Notes: a model not told the origin generated them from the letters alone. A stretch of DNA of 64,000 nt from Armatimonadota bacterium (GCA_963663705.1 OY760504.1:1538788-1602787); one strand, 5' to 3'. Shown: positions 22,904 to 33,240, counted from the stretch's first letter. Translations and numbers: made by a program.

Positions 22904-25750
22904 ATGAACAAGCAATACACCATGCACGTAATATCCGGAACTCACTGGGACAGGGAGTGGAGATACTCGGCAGAACAGTCCAAGCTCAGGCTGGTAGATC
23001 TGATGGACTCAGTTCTCGAAATTCTGGAACAAAAGTCTTCTTTCCGATCGTTCTGTATCGATGGCGGCATGGTGGCTGTTGAGGACTATCTGACACTCCG
23101 GCCGGAAAACAATGCAAGGATCAAAGCGCTGGTTGAAAATGGAAAACTCAAGTTGATGAGCTGGTACACGCTCCCGGACATGTTCACAGTTTCGCCGGAA
23201 TCCATAATCAGAAATATCACACTTGGCCGTCAAATGGCTAACAGTTTCGGCGGAGCCATGGCTGCCGGCTACACGTCATGCTCTTATGGACAGACTTCAC
23301 AACTACCTCAGATATACCGCGGGTTTGGAATAGATACAGCGCTGTACTATAGAGGCACAAACCAGTATGAATTGCCCTCACTCTTTTTGTGGAAGGGGAT
23401 GGACGGATCAGAACTGCATACGGTCAGAACATTCGATGACATTACAAGGGCCAACTGGTATTTCAACGTGCATTATCCACTCGTTTTGGGCAAGGACTTT
23501 CTGGATCTTTCATACAAGTTCAACAAAAACGAGCAACCATGCCATCTTTGTGACGGAGAATCTTATGAACGCCCATTTGCCCTGCTGCACGAAGATGGCA
23601 CGTTCAAGAACGATGCGGCATCCCTGAAGAAGGCTCTAGATGCCATAAGGCGCCATGCAGAACCCTTTGCGATAGGAAGGCATATGCTTGCGCTGAATAT
23701 AGAAGACAACGCTCGCCCTTATGAGCCTATGCCCGAAATTATAGACGCACTTAACGCTATCTCCCCGGATATCGATATCGTACAGAGCAGCTTCGATGAG
23801 TACTTCAGCGCCATACTGGGTGACCACGGAAATGACGACCTGTTTGTACACAACGGAGAAGCGCGTTTCCCCGGCGTAGCACCCGGATTCAACGGGCTTT
23901 ACGGTGCCACGCATTCGTCGAGAGTGAAATTGAAACTGATGAACGATAAGGCGGAAACGGCTCTCATTAATTTCGCAGAACCACTCGCTTCCATAGGATC
24001 AAATCTGGGCTTTGAATACCCGGCATCGGCACTGGCACGTGCATGGAGAGTCCTGCTTCAGAACCATGCGCACGACAGTATTTGCGGCGCCGCAATAGAT
24101 CGGGCCCACGAGGATATGATCTACAGATTCTCAACAGCAGAAACGGTCGGGCTTGAAGTCGCTGCGCGAAGTCTTGCCTTCCTGCAATCCAAAATAGATA
24201 CGGCAAGCCATTTTTCAGGTTCCGACTACACAATTACATTTTTCAACACGCTGGCGGTCGAACGCGATGAGATCGTCCAGATAGTCGCCGACATTCCTGA
24301 ATGCACGGACATGGAGCATTTCGACATCGTTGACGAGAACGGCAACATTGTTGAACATAAGATTCAAAGCGTCGACTCAGCCCGCGTTGCAGTCGAAAGG
24401 GAGCTGGACACATCGACATGGTTTTCGTCACGGCGCTGGCGAATTCTAATTCGAGCCCGTGTTCCCGCCATGGGATATACAACATACGCCATCAGACCAA
24501 GAAAGCCAGTGCTCATCGAGCATCCAATTTCCACAGAGCGCAAGCTTATCGCAGGTGCAGGCGGAACCCTGGAAAACGAACATATGAAGGTGCAGATAAA
24601 CAGCAACGGCACATTCAATATATACTCGAAGGACACGGGCCGTGAGTTCCGCAATCTCCACTATTTCACCGATTACGGCCAGACCGGATCTGCCCATTTG
24701 AGCGTCACTCCCCGGCGAAACCCGGTGGTGACAAGCCTTGGAGGCAGCGCCGACATTATAATGGAACAATCATCCACACTGAGAGGAGAATACCGCATCG
24801 ACCTCTGCATGCGTATTCCGGCTGCAGCCACTCAGGATAACGGCGACAGACTAAGAGAGATGAAAGATCTTCCAATATCTACACGCCTCATCCTGGACAA
24901 AGGATCGAAGGTGCTCAAAATCAAGACCCGTCTTTCAAATAGTTCAAGAGATCACAAACTGCAGATTAACTTTCCGACGTGCGTGGACACGAACTTCGCC
25001 GTTGCAGAGAGCGCTTTTGCCATCGAAAAACGGGACTTCCGGTGGCGGGAAACGGGCGACAATCTGGAGGAGTGCTACACATTTCAGCCCATGATGAATT
25101 TCGTAGACATAAACGATGGCCAAATCGGCCTGTCATTTCTTTCAAAAGGACTTAGAGAATACGAAATAACCGATGATCCCGATAGAAATCTTGCAATTAC
25201 CCTGTTGCGCACCCATCGTGATTACATGACGGCAAACAGGGAAATGAATCCCGATGAACTCGATCGCTATACCGGTATGCACTCATTCGGCGATTTCAGT
25301 TACGACTATGCGCTCTACCCGCATGCCGGTGATCACGTTGATGCCGACACTCTGCATACAGCCTATGCACATAAGATCGGCATCAGAGCAGTTCAGGGCA
25401 TACCTCACCCGGGCGATCTCCCATGCAGTGCAAGTTTTTTCACCGTGAAGCCGGCAGACAAAATAATGGTATCTGCACTGAAGCAGTCGGAAGATAGAAG
25501 TGGCACAATCCTCCGATTATGGAACATGAGCGGCGAGAAACTGAAGGCATCAGTGAAAACTTTGCTACCGCTAGAATCAGCTACAAGAGTTCGCATGGAT
25601 GAAACCATAATAGAGCCCTTGCCATTCGAAGGTGGAATATTCAGTCTGAATCTGGAGCCGCATAAAATCGAAAGCATTCTGTTAACGCCGTATGGGCAGA
25701 GCGATGAAGTCGAATCAAAATATGGGATGGATGGGAGAAAGCTCAATTGA
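22904..25750 (+). CDS. GH38 alpha-mannosidase (second paralog)
   Basis: HVISGTHWDREWRY, SWYTLPD, QNHAHDSICGAAID, AITLLR. Confidence 0.9.
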   Translation: MNKQYTMHVISGTHWDREWRYSAEQSKLRLVDLMDSVLEILEQKSSFRSFCIDGGMVAVEDYLTLRPENNARIKALVENGKLKLMSWYTLPDMFTVSPESIIRNITLGRQMANSFGGAMAAGYTSCSYGQTSQLPQIYRGFGIDTALYYRGTNQYELPSLFLWKGMDGSELHTVRTFDDITRANWYFNVHYPLVLGKDFLDLSYKFNKNEQPCHLCDGESYERPFALLHEDGTFKNDAASLKKALDAIRRHAEPFAIGRHMLALNIEDNARPYEPMPEIIDALNAISPDIDIVQSSFDEYFSAILGDHGNDDLFVHNGEARFPGVAPGFNGLYGATHSSRVKLKLMNDKAETALINFAEPLASIGSNLGFEYPASALARAWRVLLQNHAHDSICGAAIDRAHEDMIYRFSTAETVGLEVAARSLAFLQSKIDTASHFSGSDYTITFFNTLAVERDEIVQIVADIPECTDMEHFDIVDENGNIVEHKIQSVDSARVAVERELDTSTWFSSRRWRILIRARVPAMGYTTYAIRPRKPVLIEHPISTERKLIAGAGGTLENEHMKVQINSNGTFNIYSKDTGREFRNLHYFTDYGQTGSAHLSVTPRRNPVVTSLGGSADIIMEQSSTLRGEYRIDLCMRIPAAATQDNGDRLREMKDLPISTRLILDKGSKVLKIKTRLSNSSRDHKLQINFPTCVDTNFAVAESAFAIEKRDFRWRETGDNLEECYTFQPMMNFVDINDGQIGLSFLSKGLREYEITDDPDRNLAITLLRTHRDYMTANREMNPDELDRYTGMHSFGDFSYDYALYPHAGDHVDADTLHTAYAHKIGIRAVQGIPHPGDLPCSASFFTVKPADKIMVSALKQSEDRSGTILRLWNMSGEKLKASVKTLLPLESATRVRMDETIIEPLPFEGGIFSLNLEPHKIESILLTPYGQSDEVESKYGMDGRKLN

Positions 25751-27057
25751 GAAAATCGATTACCGGTATATTCTGTGGTTTGGCATTACTGAGCTTGTTC
25801 GCGTGGTACATCCAGCCCAGAGAAAACAATGGAATTAAAACCTCTCTAGTATGGGTTAGCGACGATAACCCGGTACGCAGCGAGCAGATCGCCCTGTTTA
25901 ACAAGCTCCATGGTGACATAAAGCTGAACCTGGATTCATCCAACGTAGGCATGGAGAAAGTAATAGTGCAATCGCTGGCTGGAGTTGGGCCGGATCTCTT
26001 CGATTGCGGGAACAATTACCAGCTCTCATCCTACATAAAGTCGGGAGTAGCCTGGGATATTACCGATGAACTAAAAAAGGCCGGTATAGACGTAAACAAA
26101 CAGGTCTGGCCGGCTGTGCTGCCCCTGATAACCTATAATGGGCGAGTCTACGGATTTCCAGACAATGCAAGTACGGATGCGATCTGGTTCAACAAGGCAA
26201 TTCTGGACAAAGCCCACATTCCGTATCCTACCGGTTCGTGGACGTGGGACAAGTTCATCAAACTGGCACAGCGACTGACTATCCGCGGCGAAAATGGTCG
26301 TATCATACAGTACGGACTGCTATTCGACTGGGGTAGCTGGCAGCATTTCGTTTTTCAGCAGGGAGGGCGGATGTACTCTTCTGATGGGCGGCGGTGTGTA
26401 ATAGACAGCCCTGAAGCCGTCGCCGGAATTCAACTCATGCATGACTTGATATATAAATACAAGGTAATGCCTACCCCTGCGGCTGAAAGTGCAATAGCGA
26501 CATCAGGGGGATGGGGCACTGGCCCTATAACACAGTTTTCGGCAGGCAAGGGAGCCATGGTAATCGGCGGAAGATACTTTCTTTGCAGTCTGAGGAAGGA
26601 CCCCTCTCTCAGGTTGGGGGCTGTCGAATTACCGCACAGCTCGAAACGGGTCTTCTACGGATACGGGCGATCGACTCTTATCAACAAGAACAGCCCCAAA
26701 AGATACGAAGCGCTGAAATATATCCTGTATCTGGCAGGCAAGGATTACAATGAACTCGTGAATCACCAGGCTGATGGGATTGCGCCTGTGATCGAATACA
26801 GCTACACCACCAATTACCTGCACGACCCTGATTACCCTGAAGAGACCTTTAATGCTGTCTGGCGAGATGCGATGAAAAATGCAATCCCCGGCGAAACAAG
26901 CCCGTACATAAACGGTTCTCTGGCGTTTCGAATCATGCAAAAGCAGCTGGATCTTGTTAAAGCCGATTCAAAGCTCCCATCCGACGCAATGAAGACAGCG
27001 GCAAATCAGATAAACGCCGAGATTCAGAAGAATATAAAGAATGGAACCGTACAGTGA
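25747..27057 (+). CDS. ABC-type sugar-binding protein (family 1 SBP)
   Basis: N-terminal TM anchor, AGVGPDLFD, GRVYGFP…IWFNK, WTWD.F. Confidence 0.85.
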   Translation: MRKSITGIFCGLALLSLFAWYIQPRENNGIKTSLVWVSDDNPVRSEQIALFNKLHGDIKLNLDSSNVGMEKVIVQSLAGVGPDLFDCGNNYQLSSYIKSGVAWDITDELKKAGIDVNKQVWPAVLPLITYNGRVYGFPDNASTDAIWFNKAILDKAHIPYPTGSWTWDKFIKLAQRLTIRGENGRIIQYGLLFDWGSWQHFVFQQGGRMYSSDGRRCVIDSPEAVAGIQLMHDLIYKYKVMPTPAAESAIATSGGWGTGPITQFSAGKGAMVIGGRYFLCSLRKDPSLRLGAVELPHSSKRVFYGYGRSTLINKNSPKRYEALKYILYLAGKDYNELVNHQADGIAPVIEYSYTTNYLHDPDYPEETFNAVWRDAMKNAIPGETSPYINGSLAFRIMQKQLDLVKADSKLPSDAMKTAANQINAEIQKNIKNGTVQ

Positions 27058-27085: not shown

Positions 27086-27865
27086 CTACTTGGCGGTATA
27101 GCCGCCATCTACAGGGATATTGGTTCCCGTTATATACGCCGATGCATCGGATGCCAGAAGCACCACAATGCCCATCAAATCGTTGCCATCCGCCATTCTG
27201 CCAAGAAATGTCCGACTGCTGTACTGCCTCACAAATCTCTCATTCGTTGTAACTGTCTGATACCCCCCAGGGCTAACACAGTTACAACGGATACCCTTTG
27301 AACCATAGTAGCTTGCCGTAAATCTGGTAAAGTTGATCATACCGCCCTTGTGAAAGAAGTAATCAGGATACCAGCCGTTCATCTCCGTACCTTCGTAGAT
27401 TGTGGGATCAGGCGCAATCATACCCTGCATAGAACCGATATTGATGATCGATCCACCATCCGGCATGACGTCGCCGAACGCCCTCGTGACGATGAAGAGA
27501 CCGGTGGCATTCACTTTCATGCTCTCGTCGAACGTGGAGACATCATCGATATACCCCAGCTTCATCGGCCGGGCAACGGCATTGTTCACAAGGACGTCCA
27601 TTCTACCGCTGCGCCTGATTATCTCGTCTCTTGCAGCCAGCACAGATGACTCATCCGACTGGTCCATGCAAAGGGCCCTGATATCGTATCCGCTGACTAC
27701 CAGTTCCTCCGCTACGTCTTCAAGCGCCTGGAGATTCCTCGATGCAATGTAGGTCGTGGCTCCCGCTTCTGCTAAGCCCTCTACTATCTGCCGTCCGTAC
27801 AGTCCTGCGCCACCCGTGACTAGCGCCACTTTTCCTTTAAGTGAGAATCGTTCCAGGATCGACAT
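27086..27865 (-). CDS. SDR family oxidoreductase
   Basis: TGGAGLYG, VLVNNA, Y…KGG catalytic motif, PVDGGYT. Confidence 0.9.
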   Translation of the reverse strand: MSILERFSLKGKVALVTGGAGLYGRQIVEGLAEAGATTYIASRNLQALEDVAEELVVSGYDIRALCMDQSDESSVLAARDEIIRRSGRMDVLVNNAVARPMKLGYIDDVSTFDESMKVNATGLFIVTRAFGDVMPDGGSIINIGSMQGMIAPDPTIYEGTEMNGWYPDYFFHKGGMINFTRFTASYYGSKGIRCNCVSPGGYQTVTTNERFVRQYSSRTFLGRMADGNDLMGIVVLLASDASAYITGTNIPVDGGYTAK

Positions 27866-27876
27866 TACCTGCCTCC

Positions 27877-28662
27877 TTATATATGCCGGTCCGCGCTGTT
27901 TCGGAATGCCGACATTATGCCATCACAGTATTGACTGAGCCCAACGACATCCGCACCCAGGTTGATGAAACGATAGCCCATATCTATCAGCTCCTGAAGA
28001 TTTCCAGGACCGCCAACCGTTCCAGCCCATTTGCCATGTGCAGATGCCACCTGCGCAACTCTCTTCCTTGTCTCTATAAGCAGCGGATGATTCCATTCAC
28101 CGGGAGCGCCTATCCCCTGGCTGAAGTCTGCAGGCCCGAAGAAGAGGATATCTATGCCTGGCAGGGCTGCGATGGCTTCAAGATCGTCCAATGGCTCAGG
28201 GTCTTCTATCTGCACTATCACCAGCCGCTCCTCGTTTGCCTGCAGCATGTAATCCAGCATTGATATCCCGCAGAAGGCTCCATCCGCATTCCCCCCATCG
28301 ACAGGTCTCCTGCCTATTGGATGGAAGCGTGTCATACCGATTATTTTTCTTGCCTCCTGAAGGCTCATTAGATGTGGCACCATTATACCGGCGGCATCCA
28401 TCTCAAGAGGACGGATATAGTCGCTGTATCCCCCTTTGGCAACTCTGACTATAAGGTCTACATCGTGGACCTTTGCAGCCAGTATCTGCTTTTCTATGGG
28501 CGACCAGTCATTCGGTGTGTGTTCCATGTCCGTCCACAGGCAGTCGAATCCGCTCATGGCGGCAATTTCCGCGGCTCGGGCATCCGCGAGGTTGAGTTTG
28601 AAACAGCTTGCCACTTCTCCTGCTCGGAGCTTTCTTAATACCTTGCTCGGGCGCATATTCAT
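27877..28662 (-). CDS. HpcH/HpaI-family class II aldolase
   Basis: DCLWTDMEH, AAGIMVPH, VQIED, DILFFGPAD. Confidence 0.9.
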   Translation of the reverse strand: MNMRPSKVLRKLRAGEVASCFKLNLADARAAEIAAMSGFDCLWTDMEHTPNDWSPIEKQILAAKVHDVDLIVRVAKGGYSDYIRPLEMDAAGIMVPHLMSLQEARKIIGMTRFHPIGRRPVDGGNADGAFCGISMLDYMLQANEERLVIVQIEDPEPLDDLEAIAALPGIDILFFGPADFSQGIGAPGEWNHPLLIETRKRVAQVASAHGKWAGTVGGPGNLQELIDMGYRFINLGADVVGLSQYCDGIMSAFRNSADRHI

Positions 28663-28671
28663 TGTCTTCAC

Positions 28672-29631
28672 CTATCTATCGCTAATCTCGTTGAGGACGA
28701 CTTCCCGTCCGCCTTCTTCACGGCTTCTGATGCCGGCGACGACAATCTTCATCAACTCTATGGTCTCATCAAATGGAAACGGCCGCTCACCCGTCTTTAG
28801 ATACCCGACAAACGCTTCAAGCTGTTTCTTGAACGAGTAGTAAGTATCCGAAAAAGCCGTCTGTGCATGACCGTTCGTGCCGCAAAGGGTGAGCACTCCA
28901 AAGCCGCCATACATATCCTTTATGGCCGCGACAACTACATCCGCCCCTGATTTATGCGTCAGATGCACGATGTTTCTGTCAGCATCACCCGTATTCCTGA
29001 CAGCCACGAATCCGGGACCGAGAATCGGGTATATCGCTTCAAGCGCATGGATGCCGTATCTCTCCCAGGTCTTTGATGTGGTGATGGAGGCATATCGAAT
29101 CGCTCCTAGATCGTGAGTTGATATGCGATAAGGCATGAACTCCTTTGCATACCGCATGCAGCTTGAGGACATTATCATACTGCCTTCGTCCACCCACCGA
29201 GCGAATGTGCGAAGGTCCGCTTCACTATCTACCAGCGGTTTATCTACAAATACAGGAAGTCCCGCTTCTACAAACGGTCTGCATCGATCTACATGCTCAT
29301 GCCCCTTGTCCGTGGCGATGATAACTGCATCAACATGACCGATTACATCTTCAGGGCTGTCCGAAACGTTTGGGATGAGCGATGCCTTTGATACGCGCAT
29401 AGCGTCGCCGGGATCGTCGGTCCAGATGTGGGTTATCATAGCGCCAGGTATGCCAAATGCATCTGACGGTTCCTTGTTCAGGTATTCAGGAATGCCTGGA
29501 TATGGGCACTTGGCCATTTCTTCCGGGTTGTATCCGTTGAATATTGCGCTCCATGAATATGGATGCAAGTTACCATCTACCAAACCAAGGATGGCCAGCC
29601 TGATTGTGTCTTTATCCGCTAATAATGGCAT
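28672..29631 (-). CDS. Gfo/Idh/MocA-family oxidoreductase
   Basis: VDAVII, PVFVDKPL, WERYGIHALE; start after GGGAG. Confidence 0.8.
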   Translation of the reverse strand: MPLLADKDTIRLAILGLVDGNLHPYSWSAIFNGYNPEEMAKCPYPGIPEYLNKEPSDAFGIPGAMITHIWTDDPGDAMRVSKASLIPNVSDSPEDVIGHVDAVIIATDKGHEHVDRCRPFVEAGLPVFVDKPLVDSEADLRTFARWVDEGSMIMSSSCMRYAKEFMPYRISTHDLGAIRYASITTSKTWERYGIHALEAIYPILGPGFVAVRNTGDADRNIVHLTHKSGADVVVAAIKDMYGGFGVLTLCGTNGHAQTAFSDTYYSFKKQLEAFVGYLKTGERPFPFDETIELMKIVVAGIRSREEGGREVVLNEISDR

Positions 29632-29672
29632 GTTTTTCACTCCCGATCGCACACTATCTTCGGTGCAGTACT

Positions 29673-30623
29673 TCAACGCTTTTGACGAACGACGTCCGGC
29701 ATGCGCCTCGACCATTCGGTCGGCATCACAGTTTCATCCGCAAAACCGGGAACCATATCATCAACAGCCGCCATTAGGTCCGGGTCCAACGGACCTTTTG
29801 CAAACAATGCCAGATTCTGTCGGATCTGCTCGACCGTATTGGCACCTACAAGCGCACAGGTTAACCCATCCAGCCCTAACACATACCGCACGGCCAGTTC
29901 TGCCAAAGCCATTCCCGCATCTTTGGCCAGACACCGAAGCTGCCTTCGAATTGGGATAACCTCCCTCAACTCGCGTATAATCTCATCTTCCGGCATCAGG
30001 ATAAGCCCCTGCAAGTAGATGCTTCTTACAAAAATGCCTATACCGCACTTCTTTGCGGCCTGATAAATCCCCTTGCGGACGAAACGTTGATCCAGAAGGT
30101 TCGAAGGAATCTGCAGAGTTTCTACCAACCCGGACGATATTATACTGGAGGTGACCGCCGGCGTCATAACTGATGAACCGATATGTCGTACCAGCCCTTT
30201 ATCCTTCAGCTTTAGCAAGGATTCCGCATAAATGGAATTGGTTTCATCGTGAAAGAGGCAAATGGGCAACACATCTATTCTTAGGCGTTTCAGCGAACGC
30301 ATCACGGATTCTTCCACGAAATCGTCCACGGCACTGAGCGACGAAAACTCCTCGGCCATAGGATGAATTTTGCTTACTATCACCATATCGCCCGAAATAC
30401 CAAGCTCAGACAGTGCCTTGCCCAACACTTCTTCGCTCGTACCATACACGGCCGCCGTATCAAGACAGTTTACGCCTGCTTCATAGGCGCATGATAGAAT
30501 ATCGCGGACGACGTCATAGGGCACTTGTCCGTCATGGTTCGCGATGCCGTAGTCCAGTCCAAACTGTACGGTACCCAGCATCAACTCTGAAAGTTTAAGA
30601 TCGGCGAACTGTTTTATTTGCAT
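29673..30623 (-). CDS. Aldo/keto reductase
   Basis: LGTVQFGLDYG, DTAAVYGTSEE, SLKRL…LFH, RSIYLQGL. Confidence 0.9.
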   Translation of the reverse strand: MQIKQFADLKLSELMLGTVQFGLDYGIANHDGQVPYDVVRDILSCAYEAGVNCLDTAAVYGTSEEVLGKALSELGISGDMVIVSKIHPMAEEFSSLSAVDDFVEESVMRSLKRLRIDVLPICLFHDETNSIYAESLLKLKDKGLVRHIGSSVMTPAVTSSIISSGLVETLQIPSNLLDQRFVRKGIYQAAKKCGIGIFVRSIYLQGLILMPEDEIIRELREVIPIRRQLRCLAKDAGMALAELAVRYVLGLDGLTCALVGANTVEQIRQNLALFAKGPLDPDLMAAVDDMVPGFADETVMPTEWSRRMPDVVRQKR

Positions 30624-30653
30624 ACTTACGTACCTTTGCTAAACATTGACAGA

Positions 30654-31772
30654 CTAGGGGTGCAACACAATCATCGTTCGATTTATACCGGCACGCCCGT
30701 TCTCCACGCCCCAGTACGTTACAATGACGTTTCTTTCGTCCAGCCTGATTGCGGATGGTGCACCGAACTGAAAGCCCGTCACTGCATAATCACTCGTAGT
30801 GATCGCATTCTCTGTTTTGACTTCAGGTGACCATACCTCGGCATCGAAGACTGTTACCCATCGATCGCCATTGATCTCTGCGATCTGTGCCCTCACACCT
30901 ACAGGCGCCCGCCTGTGTCCATAGACGAAAAGTATCTGGTTACCCCCCAGCCATAATGGCCAGCCTGTTTGTCCCATCACCGGAGATACGAGCGGGACCG
31001 ACCAACTGTTGCCGCCATCATGACTGATTGAGTAGTGATTTGGCAGATCTTCGTCGGAACTCCATTCGTGAGCCCAGCAGGTAGCAAGCATGGTATCGCC
31101 TGCCATCTGTATTACGCGTCCTTCCCAGTAACCGATTCGATTCATGGGATCGTAGAATATGTCGGTCGGTTTGCTCCAACTGTTGCACCCATCCACAGAC
31201 CTTGAAACGCAGATTCTATGTCCGAAAGGAAGCACACCATCCCACTGCCTCCATGTTGAATAGGAAAGCATGTTGGAACCGTCCCTGAGAGACATCATGC
31301 CTGTAGGCAATTCGAGTGGAGAAGGAAACGGTTTCGGGAGAATTCGTGCGGCAGACCATGAGCGCCCGCCATCCGAAGAACGGCGCAGCACGATCTGATT
31401 ATCACGCATGCCCACAGATTGTGGATCAACTAGCGGCAAGTCGGGATGTGCCGGATCGATTGTCCATCTGGCGCCCAGGCACATGATACTGCCGTCGGAG
31501 TCCAGGCTGATGAATCCTGTTTCTGTCGGCGGAAGTTTGCCAGTACGATTGGCATCGACCGGTCCCTCAAGTAACCAGGAGACGCCTCCATCAGTTGATC
31601 GGGCCAGCACTGGATGGCTATCCGGTGTCTCCAGGGCTTTTCCGGCAACAAATGAGGCCAGCAGTTCGTCTTCGCCAAGATGAACGATACGCGGATAATA
31701 TCCTTGAAGGCCCGACACGCTGCGATACACGGTGCCACTTTCCATAATATTGAAGCATCCAAATTTCTGCAT
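30654..31772 (-). CDS. Sialidase-like BNR/Asp-box beta-propeller, no signal peptide
   Basis: Four Asp-boxes: STDGGVSW, SSDGGRSW, SVDGCNSW, SHDGGNSW. Confidence 0.75.
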   Translation of the reverse strand: MQKFGCFNIMESGTVYRSVSGLQGYYPRIVHLGEDELLASFVAGKALETPDSHPVLARSTDGGVSWLLEGPVDANRTGKLPPTETGFISLDSDGSIMCLGARWTIDPAHPDLPLVDPQSVGMRDNQIVLRRSSDGGRSWSAARILPKPFPSPLELPTGMMSLRDGSNMLSYSTWRQWDGVLPFGHRICVSRSVDGCNSWSKPTDIFYDPMNRIGYWEGRVIQMAGDTMLATCWAHEWSSDEDLPNHYSISHDGGNSWSVPLVSPVMGQTGWPLWLGGNQILFVYGHRRAPVGVRAQIAEINGDRWVTVFDAEVWSPEVKTENAITTSDYAVTGFQFGAPSAIRLDERNVIVTYWGVENGRAGINRTMIVLHP

Positions 31773-31838: not shown

Positions 31839-32132
31839 GGCTCTATAAGCTTTCTTGTGGGTGAATCTGATTCGCCCTCACCCCTACCCCCGATTTCGGG
31901 CGAGGGGGGATGCCGCTTATCCCTAGTAGTCCACAGGGCATATCGAGGGACGGTACATGTCTGCCAGGCTTCGGCAGCGGCGTCTTCGACTCTGCAACCG
32001 AAGCATCAACACACCCGTGAAGGGTGTGCCTACATCTAGTCGGCGCAGGCCGACTTAGTGTTTTTGTTGACGCGAATTTATTCGCACGGTTGTTGGAACA
32101 CTACCGCTATCCACAAACTTTCTCATAGAGCC
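31839..32132. mobile_element. MITE copy 1 (294 bp), ISL3-type ends
   Basis: Imperfect ~24-bp TIRs GGCTCTATAAG…GTGGGT / ATCCACAAA…CATAGAGCC; 8-bp TSD GTATTTAC at 31831-31838 and 32133-32140. Confidence 0.9.
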
Positions 32133-32475: not shown

Positions 32476-32526
32476 TTGACACCCCTGCAGGCGAGTGCTA
32501 CAATACACACAGAGTGCTATGAGCAC
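32476..32526 (+). promoter_or_regulatory. Sigma70 promoter of the FadR gene with downstream palindromic operator
   Basis: TTGACA 32476-32481, 17 bp, TACAAT 32499-32504; GTGCT-ATG-AGCAC 32514-32526. Confidence 0.75.
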
Positions 32527-32553
32527 CGATGCAATCTCTGGAGGTACCAACCC

Positions 32554-33240
32554 ATGTTGTCGCCAGTGGACCGACAAACGCTCTCTCAACAAGTATTGAA
32601 TAAACTACAGCAGTACATCATGGCTAAAGGGCTGCGTCCCGGAGACCGCCTGCCTGCTGAGCGCAAACTGGCTGTAGACCTGGGGGTAAGTTGCAGCACA
32701 ATCCGCGAAGCATTGAAACCTTTGCAGGCGATAGGAGCCGTATCCAGGATGCCGCGAGGGTCTGTGCTACAAGAGGTTGATTTCAGAACGCTGGCAGGAA
32801 TTTCCCGTTTCCTGATGGTACAGTCGCACGATGACCTTATGGAGCTATCCATCGCACGACAATGGCTTGAGACTAACATGCTTCCAATGGTTGCCGAGAA
32901 CTGCACCCCCGAACAATATACTCAGCTGGAAGACGCTAACCGGCTCATGGAGGCAGAGATAAACTCTGGCCAACTCGGTATTGATGGGGATGCCGCTTTT
33001 CACCAGACTCTTCTGGCTGCCACCAACAACAAGTTTCTACAGCAGTTTGGCGGCCTGATTCAGGAGTTTTTCATCGAAATACGCACCGTGCTGTCAATGG
33101 ACGAACAGAAGGCACGGAAGGCGCTGGACGATCATTGCAAGTTGGTTGAATATCTGCATGCCGGTGACGTGGAACGCGCTAAGTTGCAGATGCATGACCA
33201 TCTTTCCGAGTATATCCAGTCGAGTCAAGACGGCAGCTAA
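32554..33240 (+). CDS. FadR/GntR-family regulator (FCD domain)
   Basis: PGDRLPAERKLA…VSCSTIREAL; ARQWLE, DAAFHQTL; GGAGG RBS at 32540. Confidence 0.92.
   Translation: MLSPVDRQTLSQQVLNKLQQYIMAKGLRPGDRLPAERKLAVDLGVSCSTIREALKPLQAIGAVSRMPRGSVLQEVDFRTLAGISRFLMVQSHDDLMELSIARQWLETNMLPMVAENCTPEQYTQLEDANRLMEAEINSGQLGIDGDAAFHQTLLAATNNKFLQQFGGLIQEFFIEIRTVLSMDEQKARKALDDHCKLVEYLHAGDVERAKLQMHDHLSEYIQSSQDGS

What the first reader, a model, noticed from the sequence alone, without database searches (positions are those of the whole stretch)
27086..31772. Five-gene pathway for an acidic (possibly nonulosonate-like) sugar
Seen: a cytoplasmic Asp-box propeller, AKR, Gfo/Idh/MocA, HpcH aldolase and SDR are co-oriented, with no NanA/NanK/NanE. 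Established: HpcH aldolases cleave 2-keto-3-deoxy acids to pyruvate plus an aldehyde; this AKR type often neighbours nonulosonic-acid genes. Inference: a redox-then-aldol route for an unusual keto-deoxy sugar acid; the propeller may be a mutarotase or lactonase rather than a sialidase.
Basis: inference. Interest (0 to 1): 0.55.

Follow-up and report, generated by a model that had tools for sequence, protein, structure and literature searches.

The report
Sialidase-like propeller joined to aldolase cassette
Five same-strand genes form an operon in which a widespread but unstudied three-to-four-enzyme cassette (unusual dehydrogenase, pyruvate aldolase, two reductases) has picked up a remodelled sialidase-like protein; it probably breaks down an acidic keto-deoxy sugar by a route I could not find described.

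Summary
Five tightly packed minus-strand genes encode a leaderless six-bladed Asp-box propeller, an AKR, a divergent Gfo/Idh/MocA-like protein, an HpcH class II aldolase and an SDR. They face an FCD-type GntR regulator.

The five genes are not one conserved unit. Gfo-like + HpcH + SDR (± AKR) is a widespread cassette found in several phyla, and the Gfo-like protein is 54-77% identical across them. The window's propeller is a local addition. Its orthologs elsewhere lack the four enzymes and instead sit beside a DHDPS-type pyruvate aldolase and/or an Amidohydro_2 gene. Other, only distantly related sialidase-like propellers sit next to the cassette in other loci.

The four enzymes keep their catalytic residues. 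The propeller keeps only part of the sialidase set: I found no second arginine and no tyrosine at the canonical nucleophile position.

No classical sugar-acid dehydratase family turned up among the neighbours I annotated in about 95 related loci. This favours a substrate that is already a 2-keto-3-deoxy (ulosonic, sialic-acid-like) acid, but the substrate remains unknown. I found no description of the cassette in the literature I searched.

The scan has met this cassette before on other DNA; earlier notes also left it uncharacterised.

The parts
27086..27865 (-). SDR oxidoreductase (259 aa), closest to the gluconate-5-dehydrogenase/KduD type; last gene of the operon
   Evidence: Pfam adh_short_C2 137 bits. 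NCBIfam best hit is gluconate 5-DH, 178 bits, below its 279 cut-off. TGxxxGxG and YxxxK motifs are present. Orthologs of 47-73% identity lie next to the Gfo-like gene in 32 of 52 loci with enough flank.
27877..28671 (-). HpcH/HpaI-family class II (metal-dependent) pyruvate aldolase (264 aa)
   Evidence: PF03328 91 bits. The best solved relative is YfaU, a 2-keto-3-deoxy sugar aldolase, at 113 bits. His, Arg, Glu and Asp align with YfaU positions 49/74/153/179. Orthologs of 46-73% identity sit beside the Gfo-like gene in 33 of 52 loci.
28672..29631 (-). Divergent Gfo/Idh/MocA-like NAD-type oxidoreductase (319 aa from the likely start; the ORF runs to 29715). It is the signature gene of the cassette.
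   Evidence: PF01408 33 bits. No PDB sequence hit at E<1e-5. AlphaFold pLDDT 96; nearest folds are inositol dehydrogenases, GenD2/KanD2, AFR and GFOR, with RgNanOx at TM 0.70. Conserved GxxxGNGHPYSW, DKP and (R/K/T)xxxH motifs. 447 50%-identity clusters at E<=1e-30. 65-77% identity across several phyla.
29673..30623 (-). Aldo/keto reductase (316 aa)
   Evidence: PF00248 125 bits. The D55/Y60/K85/H125 tetrad is present. The nearest solved or curated relatives are weak: DON 3-epimerase subunit, L-galactose dehydrogenases and KidO. Orthologs (>=40% identity) lie near the Gfo-like gene in 10 of 52 loci.
30654..31772 (-). Leaderless six-bladed Asp-box (sialidase-fold) propeller (372 aa) with a remodelled active site; first gene of the operon
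   Evidence: AlphaFold pLDDT 89. The best PDB match is 5hx0 (Dfer_1899, function unknown), followed by GH33 sialidases. In hhalign against canonical-like BNR_2 proteins, R17, D51 and E217 are kept, no Arg aligns at the Arg2 position, and the canonical Tyr position holds Ala/Pro. Orthologs sit next to DHDPS and/or Amidohydro_2 genes, not next to the cassette.
31839..32132 (.). High-copy MITE inserted in the operon's 5' leader, between the propeller start and the divergent promoter region
   Evidence: 40 further matches of 83-98% identity elsewhere in the same genome. A promoter-like site on the minus strand lies upstream at 32248-32220.
32476..33240 (+). Divergently transcribed FCD-type GntR regulator, the probable repressor of the operon
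   Evidence: Pfam GntR + FCD. The best NCBIfam hit is the NanR subfamily, 107 bits, below its 260 cut-off. FCD regulators also flank the cassette in L075, L078 and L114 and in the second copy in this genome. The start codon is uncertain.

Best explanation
The operon is a composite of two modules.

Module 1 is a self-contained, horizontally spread cassette: Gfo-like oxidoreductase, HpcH class II pyruvate aldolase and SDR, often with an AKR. Module 2 is a cytoplasmic sialidase-fold propeller recruited locally. The whole is controlled by a carboxylate-sensing FCD-type GntR regulator.

The most likely role is intracellular breakdown of an acidic 2-keto-3-deoxy (ulosonic, sialic-acid-like) sugar, for example a Kdo-, Kdn- or nonulosonate-type compound. 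The proposed steps are all inferred:
1. The propeller binds the carboxylated sugar. It either releases it from an imported glycoside or converts an anhydro, unsaturated or lactone form of it.
2. The Gfo-like enzyme uses NAD to oxidise a ring hydroxyl, transiently or net. RgNanOx/YjhC does this to 2,7-anhydro-Neu5Ac. The product is an open-chain 4-hydroxy-2-oxo acid.
3. HpcH cleaves that acid into pyruvate plus an aldehyde or aldose.
4. The AKR and the SDR oxidise or reduce that aldehyde, or prepare the acid.

Shown here: gene order, intact catalytic motifs, the folds, conservation of the cassette, and the link between propellers and pyruvate aldolases. Inferred: the substrate class and every reaction.
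For: - Operon-like packing with a divergent FCD regulator.
- Cassette conservation. The Gfo-like gene has HpcH on the same strand in 33 of 52 loci with at least 4 kb of flank, and the SDR in 32 of 52, at 46-76% identity. It occurs in Verrucomicrobiota, Lentisphaerota, Armatimonadota, Paenibacillus, Planctomycetota and Chloroflexota.
- Sialidase-fold propellers of at least three subfamilies, only 19-32% identical to each other, lie beside the cassette, several directly upstream of the Gfo-like gene: the window itself, L075/L106, L089-L092, L149/L151 and L162.
- The window-type propeller's orthologs sit beside a DHDPS-family pyruvate aldolase (L049, L052, L054) and/or Amidohydro_2 (L050, L052, L053, L054). 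The propeller family is therefore tied to pyruvate aldolases of two unrelated classes.
- Among the recurrent and adjacent neighbours I annotated in about 95 cassette loci, none was an enolase-superfamily, IlvD/Edd or UxaA dehydratase. This fits a substrate that is already 3-deoxy.
- The genome's second copy of the cassette lies with DHDPS, an MFS transporter, a ROK kinase, a SIS protein and another FCD regulator, which are Nan-like parts.
- HpcH keeps the His/Arg/Glu/Asp set of YfaU. The Gfo-like enzyme keeps the Lys of the EKP-type motif and the catalytic His. By motif position (no structural superposition) it has a basic or neutral residue where the triad Asp normally sits. NanOx has His there, modelled against the substrate carboxylate (PMC7535918).
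Against: - No substrate, transporter or glycosidase of known specificity is linked in this window.
- Most cassette loci have no propeller (7 of 52 do), so the cassette does not depend on one.
- The propeller lacks a complete arginine triad and the canonical tyrosine, so carboxylate binding and glycoside cleavage are both unproven.
- The Gfo-like enzyme is not a NanOx relative by sequence (profile E 0.14). Structurally it is no closer to NanOx than to inositol dehydrogenases.
- The AKR and SDR roles are guesses.
- Aminotransferase, deacetylase, URO-D-like and MTTB-like neighbours in other loci hint at other or several substrates.
- My ORF calling in the related loci was crude, and only the recurrent or adjacent neighbours were annotated, so a dehydratase could have been missed in single loci.
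Confidence: 0.4

Rival explanations
1. Non-phosphorylative oxidative pathway for a neutral aldose of the L-fucose / L-galactose / D-arabinose / L-rhamnose type. The AKR (or the Gfo-like enzyme) oxidises C1 to the lactone. The propeller or an unlinked enzyme opens the lactone. A dehydratase encoded elsewhere makes the 2-keto-3-deoxy acid. HpcH cleaves it to pyruvate plus lactaldehyde or glycolaldehyde. The SDR handles the keto-deoxy acid or the aldehyde.
For: - The AKR's nearest solved relatives include L-galactose dehydrogenases.
- The HpcH's nearest relative is YfaU, the 2-keto-3-deoxy-L-rhamnonate-type aldolase.
- Amidohydro_2, the family that holds the L-fucono- and L-rhamnono-lactonases (my own knowledge), recurs in related loci and in the genome's second copy.
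- The genome has enolase-superfamily genes elsewhere.
- Earlier scan notes report GH29 and GH78 genes near similar cassettes (unchecked).
Against: - No dehydratase family was found among the annotated neighbours in about 95 loci. The genome's three enolase-superfamily genes and its single IlvD lie more than 1 Mb from both cassette copies, and there is no UxaA.
- It does not explain why sialidase-fold propellers, DHDPS, ROK, SIS and amino-sugar enzymes recur beside the cassette.
- It gives the most conserved gene, the Gfo-like one, no necessary role.
Confidence: 0.25
2. Oxidative route for 4,5-unsaturated uronates released from acidic polysaccharides. The ring-opened 5-keto-4-deoxyuronate is oxidised (Gfo-like enzyme) to 5-keto-4-deoxyglucarate, or reduced (SDR/AKR) to KDG. 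A GarL-like HpcH cleaves it to pyruvate plus tartronate semialdehyde or glyceraldehyde, which the remaining reductase converts.
For: - The route needs no dehydratase.
- The SDR is closest to the gluconate-5-DH/KduD type.
- HpcH scores almost as well against GarL as against YfaU.
- Relatives in the same class are known degraders of sulfated acidic polysaccharides (PMC7356697; title and abstract seen).
Against: - No recognised polysaccharide lyase or unsaturated glycuronyl hydrolase was seen next to the cassette among the annotated neighbours.
- No KduI, KdgK or Eda gene is linked.
- The idea is purely chemical reasoning.
Confidence: 0.1
3. The cassette is the lower half of an oxidative N-acyl-hexosamine or amino-sugar-acid pathway: dehydrogenase, lactonase, deacylase, PLP enzyme, aldolase. 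The window holds a trimmed version of it that works on an intermediate supplied from elsewhere.
For: Genes beside the cassette in other loci:
- Class-III aminotransferase, often fused to Amidohydro_2: 11 loci.
- NagA-like Amidohydro_1: 6 loci.
- DegT: 4 loci.
- PIG-L deacetylase.

The genome's second copy carries GNAT, ROK and SIS genes. GenD2/KanD2, dehydrogenases from aminoglycoside biosynthesis that (from my own knowledge) work with aminotransferases, are among the closest folds.
Against: None of the amino-handling genes is in or near this operon. Most cassette loci lack them. The route still needs an elimination step that nobody has shown.
Confidence: 0.1
4. The five genes are neighbours without a shared function, or the operon is silenced: the propeller is a recent, unrelated insertion, and the MITE in the leader has cut the operon off from its promoter.
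For: - The propeller is not conserved with the cassette.
- Same-family relatives in the sample lack an ortholog of it.
- A 294-bp MITE lies between the first gene and the upstream promoter-like site.
Against: - All five reading frames are intact and keep their catalytic motifs.
- Spacing is 0-41 nt with no predicted terminator between the genes.
- Independent propeller subfamilies occupy the same position upstream of the Gfo-like gene in other loci.
Confidence: 0.08

Closest known systems
Ruminococcus gnavus / E. coli 2,7-anhydro-Neu5Ac route: IT-sialidase NanH, Gfo/Idh/MocA oxidoreductase NanOx (YjhC/NanY), class I lyase NanA (PMC7535918)
   Same: The same three-part logic in the same order: a sialidase-fold enzyme, then an NAD-dependent Gfo/Idh/MocA-fold enzyme, then a pyruvate aldolase. 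The triad Asp position is replaced in both. Control is by a carboxylate-type regulator.
   Different: - The propeller here is cytoplasmic and lacks a full arginine triad and the canonical Tyr.
- The Gfo-like enzyme is a separate family (no significant sequence match; TM 0.70).
- The aldolase is class II HpcH, not DHDPS-type NanA.
- Two extra reductases (AKR, SDR) are present.
- There is no NanK or NanE.
Non-phosphorylative L-rhamnose / L-fucose pathways (aldose 1-dehydrogenase, lactonase, dehydratase, YfaU/LRA4-type aldolase or 4-dehydrogenase plus hydrolase)
   Same: An HpcH aldolase closest to YfaU; SDR and AKR dehydrogenases; Amidohydro_2 in sister loci; a GntR-family regulator.
   Different: No dehydratase is linked, either here or among the annotated neighbours of about 95 related loci. 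A Gfo-like enzyme and sialidase-fold propellers are not part of those pathways.
E. coli glucarate/galactarate lower pathway (GarL HpcH-family aldolase + GarR reductase)
   Same: A class II HpcH aldolase followed by a reductase acting on the aldehyde product.
   Different: The HpcH scores far below the GarL equivalog cut-off (123 vs 393 bits). There is no GarD/GudD dehydratase, GarK or GarR-type enzyme.
PDB 5hx0, Dfer_1899 of Dyadobacter fermentans (function unknown)
   Same: The closest solved structure to the propeller: Foldseek E 2e-16, TM 0.75, and a profile hit at E 1e-12.
   Different: Only 18% identity. No function is assigned, so it gives no functional information.

Membership tests
GH33 exo-alpha-sialidase | Six-bladed beta-propeller with Asp-box (SxDxGxTW) repeats | tested here: met
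   AlphaFold model pLDDT 89. GH33 structures match at TM 0.63-0.71 and E about 1e-11. Asp-boxes are visible in the alignment.
GH33 exo-alpha-sialidase | Arginine triad that binds the C1 carboxylate | tested here: not met
   hhalign against three canonical-like BNR_2 proteins that all carry the triad. R17 aligns with Arg1 and an Arg (R287/R288/R294) lies near Arg3. The Arg2 position falls in a gap, and the segment TCWAHEW holds no Arg or Lys. Alignment confidence is low there and I made no residue-level structural superposition.
GH33 exo-alpha-sialidase | Tyr nucleophile paired with Glu, plus an Asp acid/base | tested here: inconclusive
   E217 and D51 align with the canonical Glu and Asp. The residue before the inner strand of blade 6 is Ala338/Pro339, where canonical-like proteins have Tyr. 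An invariant Y329 lies 10 residues upstream in a loop with pLDDT below 50.
HpcH/HpaI class II pyruvate aldolase | Family profile match and the His/Arg/Glu/Asp catalytic and metal-binding set | tested here: met
   PF03328 91 bits (cut-off 25). In the alignment with YfaU (2vws), H, R, E and D stand at chain positions 49, 74, 153 and 179. The residue roles are from my memory of the YfaU/HpaI literature.
YfaU/RhmA, GarL or HpaI equivalogs | Score above the NCBIfam equivalog cut-off | tested here: not met
   111-126 bits against cut-offs of 369-441. It is a separate subfamily of unknown specificity.
Gfo/Idh/MocA oxidoreductases | Rossmann N-domain plus alpha/beta C-domain fold; Lys of the EKP motif; His of the DxxxH motif | tested here: met
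   PF01408 33 bits (cut-off 24). Model pLDDT 96, TM 0.70-0.75 to inositol dehydrogenases. DKP Lys131 and His195 are invariant in 41 sequences. Two features are atypical: the glycine loop reads GxxxGNGHPYSW, and the Asp position holds R/K/T (by motif position).
NanOx / YjhC (NanY) 2,7-anhydro-sialic acid oxidoreductases | Sequence membership and the HxxH motif | tested here: not met
   The profile search gives 6z3b/6z3c only at E 0.14. Foldseek ranks them 46-50. The motif is (R/K/T)xxxH, not HxxH (PMC7535918). It may work like NanOx, but it is not a member of that family.
Canonical Nan regulon (NanA, NanK, NanE, NagA, NagB) | DHDPS-type lyase, ROK kinase and ManNAc-6-P epimerase in or near the locus | tested here: not met
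   None is in the operon or its flanks. PF04131 (NanE) finds nothing in the genome. DHDPS and ROK genes occur at the second cassette copy, 0.78 Mb away.
Non-phosphorylative aldose (fucose/rhamnose-type) pathway | A sugar-acid dehydratase (enolase superfamily, IlvD/Edd or UxaA) linked to the aldolase | tested here: not met
   None is in the window's operon. None was found among the recurrent or adjacent neighbours annotated in about 95 related loci. The genome's candidates lie more than 1 Mb away.
Aldo/keto reductase and classical SDR | AKR tetrad D-Y-K-H; SDR TGxxxGxG and YxxxK | tested here: met
   AKR: D55, Y60, K85 and H125. SDR: TGGAGLYG and YFFHK, with an unusually long Ser-to-Tyr spacing.

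The most novel reading that the evidence does not exclude
The Gfo-like + HpcH + SDR (± AKR) cassette encodes an undescribed, dehydratase-free catabolic route for ulosonic (sialic-acid-like: Kdo, Kdn or nonulosonate) acids. In it a new Gfo/Idh/MocA family does NanOx-like redox chemistry, and a class II metal aldolase replaces NanA. The remodelled cytoplasmic sialidase-fold propellers are not glycosidases. They are converters (anhydro, unsaturated or lactone forms) that feed the cassette.
Probability: 0.3. Interest if true: 0.75.

Novelty: new variant of a known kind. Interest (0 to 1): 0.55.

Why it matters
The Gfo-like signature enzyme has thousands of close relatives: more than 6,600 clusters at 90% identity. 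They occur in polysaccharide-degrading bacteria of soil, freshwater, marine and gut habitats. Even so, neither the enzyme nor the cassette has an assigned substrate.

If the cassette degrades Kdo-, Kdn- or nonulosonate-type acids, it would fill a gap. From my own knowledge, the genes for environmental turnover of these abundant acidic sugars are largely unknown outside the host-associated Nan pathway.

It would also add a new reaction type to the Gfo/Idh/MocA family, and a new, non-glycosidase role to the sialidase fold.

The enzymes are small, soluble and easy to test, so the question can be settled directly at the bench.

Tried and rejected
I could not see the context of the nearest metagenomic propeller homologs (P0003 66%, P0004 63%). 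I used the fetch from genomes and the search for related loci instead.
- **Sequence searches of the propeller against PDB** aligned mostly Asp-boxes and gave no map of the catalytic residues. The N-terminal fragment search was uninformative.
- **No coordinates of the models were available**, so I could not superpose residues. I replaced that with hhalign against canonical-like BNR_2 proteins of the same genome.
- **ESM Atlas and cluster-member look-ups** for the Gfo-like protein gave only generic names.
- **Literature searches** combining HpcH with Gfo, fucose, sialic acid, Verrucomicrobia or Kiritimatiellales found no description of the cassette.
- **GH38 and the solute-binding protein upstream** (22904-27057): I considered them as part of the unit and rejected this. 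They are on the other strand, convergent, and follow their own GntR-LacI regulator.
- **The long ORF start of the Gfo-like gene** (29715, overlapping the AKR gene) was rejected. Orthologs align only from residue 30 or so, and an ATG with GGGAG upstream lies at 29631.

Full report
**1. What is in the sequence**

Between 27086 and 31772 five ORFs lie head to tail on the minus strand. Pfam and NCBIfam name them as follows:
- an SDR (27086-27865);
- an HpcH/HpaI class II aldolase (27877-28671);
- a weakly matching Gfo/Idh/MocA protein (28672-29715 as an ORF);
- an aldo/keto reductase (29673-30623);
- a BNR/Asp-box protein (30654-31772, or 31820 from the first ATG).

The Gfo-like ORF's first ATG overlaps the AKR gene by 43 nt. 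Orthologs align only from about residue 30, and an ATG at 29631 has GGGAG nine bases upstream, so the gene most likely starts there. With that start the gaps between genes are 11, 0, 41 and 30 nt. No terminator-like site is predicted between the genes on the coding strand.

An FCD-type GntR regulator is transcribed divergently (32476-33240). Its best curated hit is the NanR subfamily, well below that family's cut-off.

The GH38 gene and the solute-binding protein gene to the left are convergent and follow their own regulator, so I do not count them as part of the unit.

The genome is a complete 3.78-Mb chromosome of a PVC-type bacterium, with DUF1559 pilin-like and PEP-CTERM genes. An 8.2-Mb genome of the same class holds the best ortholog of the propeller found in the phylum sample.

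**2. Are the proteins functional?**

- HpcH. It aligns over its whole length with the 2-keto-3-deoxy sugar aldolase YfaU. It has His, Arg, Glu and Asp at YfaU positions 49, 74, 153 and 179. The roles of those residues are from my memory of the YfaU/HpaI literature.
- AKR. It has the D-Y-K-H tetrad.
- SDR. It has TGxxxGxG and YxxxK.
- Gfo-like protein. It has no PDB sequence match at E<1e-5. An AlphaFold model built on 41 orthologs has pLDDT 96. It superposes on inositol dehydrogenases, GenD2/KanD2, 1,5-anhydrofructose reductase, GFOR and RgNanOx at TM 0.65-0.75. It keeps the Lys of the EKP-type motif (here DKP) and the catalytic His. By motif position, without a structural superposition, the residue four places before the His is R/K/T and not the usual Asp, and the glycine loop reads GxxxGNGHPYSW. 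RgNanOx also replaces that Asp, with a His modelled against the substrate's carboxylate (PMC7535918). I take this only as a weak hint of an acidic substrate.

**3. The propeller**

The model (pLDDT 89) is a six-bladed propeller. Its best solved match is 5hx0, a Dyadobacter protein of unknown function, followed by many GH33 sialidases at about 15% identity. It has no signal peptide.

No residue-level structural superposition was possible. I therefore aligned the family profile (22 sequences) by hhalign to three canonical-like BNR_2 proteins. Two come from the same genome and one from a relative's cassette locus. All three carry Arg1, Glu, Arg2, Arg3 and a G/C-Y motif before the last blade. The result:
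- R17, D51 and E217 align with Arg1, the acid/base Asp and the Glu.
- An Arg lies near Arg3. R287 is the only Arg invariant across the wider family.
- No Arg or Lys aligns with Arg2.
- The canonical Tyr position holds Ala338/Pro339. An invariant Y329 sits in a low-confidence loop just upstream.

The protein is therefore sialidase-like in fold, but its active site is remodelled. The confidence of this alignment is low exactly in the two negative regions.

**4.

*Propeller orthologs.* I examined orthologs of 53-59% identity, in six contigs of GTDB species genomes, and of 28-35% identity, in fifteen further loci from the phylum sample. None has the AKR, Gfo-like, HpcH or SDR orthologs within 10 kb. 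Instead, the close orthologs are flanked by a DHDPS-family aldolase (L049, L052, L054) and/or an Amidohydro_2 gene (L050, L052, L053, L054). More distant orthologs are flanked by DHDPS, canonical Gfo and FG-GAP genes.

*The cassette.* The Gfo-like gene has orthologs of 54-77% identity in many genomes of the phylum and in 575 or more metagenome contigs. Among the 52 loci with at least 4 kb of flank, the counts of same-strand neighbours are:
- HpcH: 33
- SDR: 32
- AKR (at least 40% identity): 10
- a sialidase-like propeller: 7

The family is large: 447 clusters at 50% identity with E<=1e-30, and more than 6,600 clusters at 90% identity. It occurs in Armatimonadota, Lentisphaerota, Verrucomicrobiota, Planctomycetota, Chloroflexota and Paenibacillus.

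*Modularity.* In the 8.2-Mb genome of the same class, the propeller-DHDPS-Amidohydro_2 set and the Gfo-like-HpcH-SDR set lie 3.3 Mb apart. So the 'five-gene pathway' is really a three- or four-gene cassette plus a recruited propeller.

**5. What else travels with the cassette**

The propellers next to the cassette in other loci are only 19-32% identical to the window's and belong to at least two other subfamilies. Several sit directly upstream of the Gfo-like gene, as here.

Other recurrent neighbours:
- a canonical Gfo oxidoreductase: 16 loci;
- a class-III aminotransferase, often fused to Amidohydro_2: 11 loci;
- URO-D-like proteins: 8 loci;
- DHDPS followed by two unannotated proteins of about 150 aa: 7 loci;
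- NagA-like amidohydrolase: 6 loci;
- DegT and MTTB-like proteins: 4 loci each;
- a PIG-L deacetylase.

The window's own genome has a second copy at about 0.77-0.81 Mb. It holds an FCD regulator, AKR, FG-GAP protein, Amidohydro_2, Gfo-like (70% identical), AKR, GNAT, MFS transporter, DHDPS, the two small proteins, SDR (68% identical), a canonical Gfo, two more Amidohydro_2 genes, a ROK kinase and a SIS protein.

I saw no enolase-superfamily, IlvD/Edd or UxaA dehydratase among the annotated neighbours. In this genome such genes lie more than 1 Mb from both copies, and there is no UxaA. NanE is not found in the genome.

**6. Interpretation**

A class II pyruvate aldolase needs a 4-hydroxy-2-oxo acid as substrate. 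No dehydratase is linked. Sialidase-fold proteins have been recruited repeatedly and independently. The window-type propeller is tied to a second, unrelated class of pyruvate aldolase. The regulator is of the carboxylate-sensing kind, and the second copy carries Nan-like parts.

Together these make an already 3-deoxy, acidic (ulosonic) sugar the most economical substrate class. The NanH-NanOx-NanA route (PMC7535918) is the closest working analogy. I put this at about 0.4.

The rivals:
- A fucose/rhamnose-type oxidative pathway with an unlinked dehydratase: 0.25.
- An oxidative unsaturated-uronate route: 0.1.
- The tail of an amino-sugar-acid route: 0.1.
- A non-functional juxtaposition: under 0.1.

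None of the reactions has been shown.

**7. Known or new?**

Seven full-text searches found no paper that describes this cassette. The library lacks most subscription journals, so the absence is not proof.

Earlier notes of this scan describe the same cassette in other genomes, in several cases beside sialidase-like genes, amino-sugar genes or a NanM-SSS transporter. Those that were followed up also left it uncharacterised. I used these notes as leads only. My own tests confirm that the cassette is widespread and is linked to propellers and DHDPS.

I class the finding as a new variant of a known kind: a pyruvate-aldolase-based sugar-acid catabolic operon.

**8. Caveats**

- Gene calling in the related loci was a simple ORF heuristic, and only the recurrent or adjacent neighbours were annotated.
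- The genomes and contigs are samples, and related ones are not independent of each other.
- The active-site map rests on a profile alignment, not on a structural superposition.
- A MITE lies in the operon's leader, so expression in this strain is not assured.

Noticed in passing
window 31839-32132: A 294-bp MITE with 40 further matches (83-98% identity) in this genome lies in the leader of the operon, between the propeller start and the divergent promoter region. It may affect expression.
   Followed up: partly
G000:C1:772000-806000 (loci L167, L072): A second, larger copy of the system in the same genome: FCD regulator, 2 AKR, FG-GAP protein, 3-4 Amidohydro_2, Gfo-like (70% id), SDR (68% id), canonical Gfo, DHDPS, MFS, 2 GNAT, ROK kinase, SIS protein. 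It has DHDPS in place of HpcH.
   Followed up: partly
L104:5749-6680, L091:14338-15248, L136:995-1908, L112:4594-5527, L167:14154-15226: Two tandem proteins of about 150 aa with no Pfam match and a shared C-P-A/G motif. They follow a DHDPS gene directly in five of the seven cassette loci that hold them; in L136 and L134 the preceding ORF has no Pfam match or was not annotated. Possibly an unknown two-subunit partner of the aldolase.
   Followed up: no
L114:10970-13285 (also L070, L090, L092, L093): A 770-835-aa fusion of an Amidohydro_2 domain (a family that includes lactonases and decarboxylases) with a class-III aminotransferase, encoded beside the Gfo-like gene in several loci. I did not search for a description of this architecture.
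   Followed up: no
L089:2556-3695, L136:10873-13146, L132, L133, L091:1487-2890: URO-D-like proteins (MtaA-type fold) and an MTTB-like methyltransferase recur beside the cassette. This may hint at demethylation of a methylated sugar before the core steps.
   Followed up: no
window 29632-29715: The longest ORF of the Gfo-like gene overlaps the AKR gene by 43 nt. The real start is probably the ATG at 29631, and an automatic annotation may miscall it.
   Followed up: yes
L090:11630-13624, L091:7381-9372: A GH36/melibiase-like gene is inserted between HpcH and SDR in one metagenome locus (L091), and between the Gfo-like gene and SDR in another (L090). This links the cassette there to an alpha-galactosidase-type hydrolase.
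   Followed up: no
window 32476-32504: The listed TTG start of the FCD regulator coincides with the best sigma-70-like promoter match in the region (11 of 12), so the true start codon probably lies further downstream.
   Followed up: no
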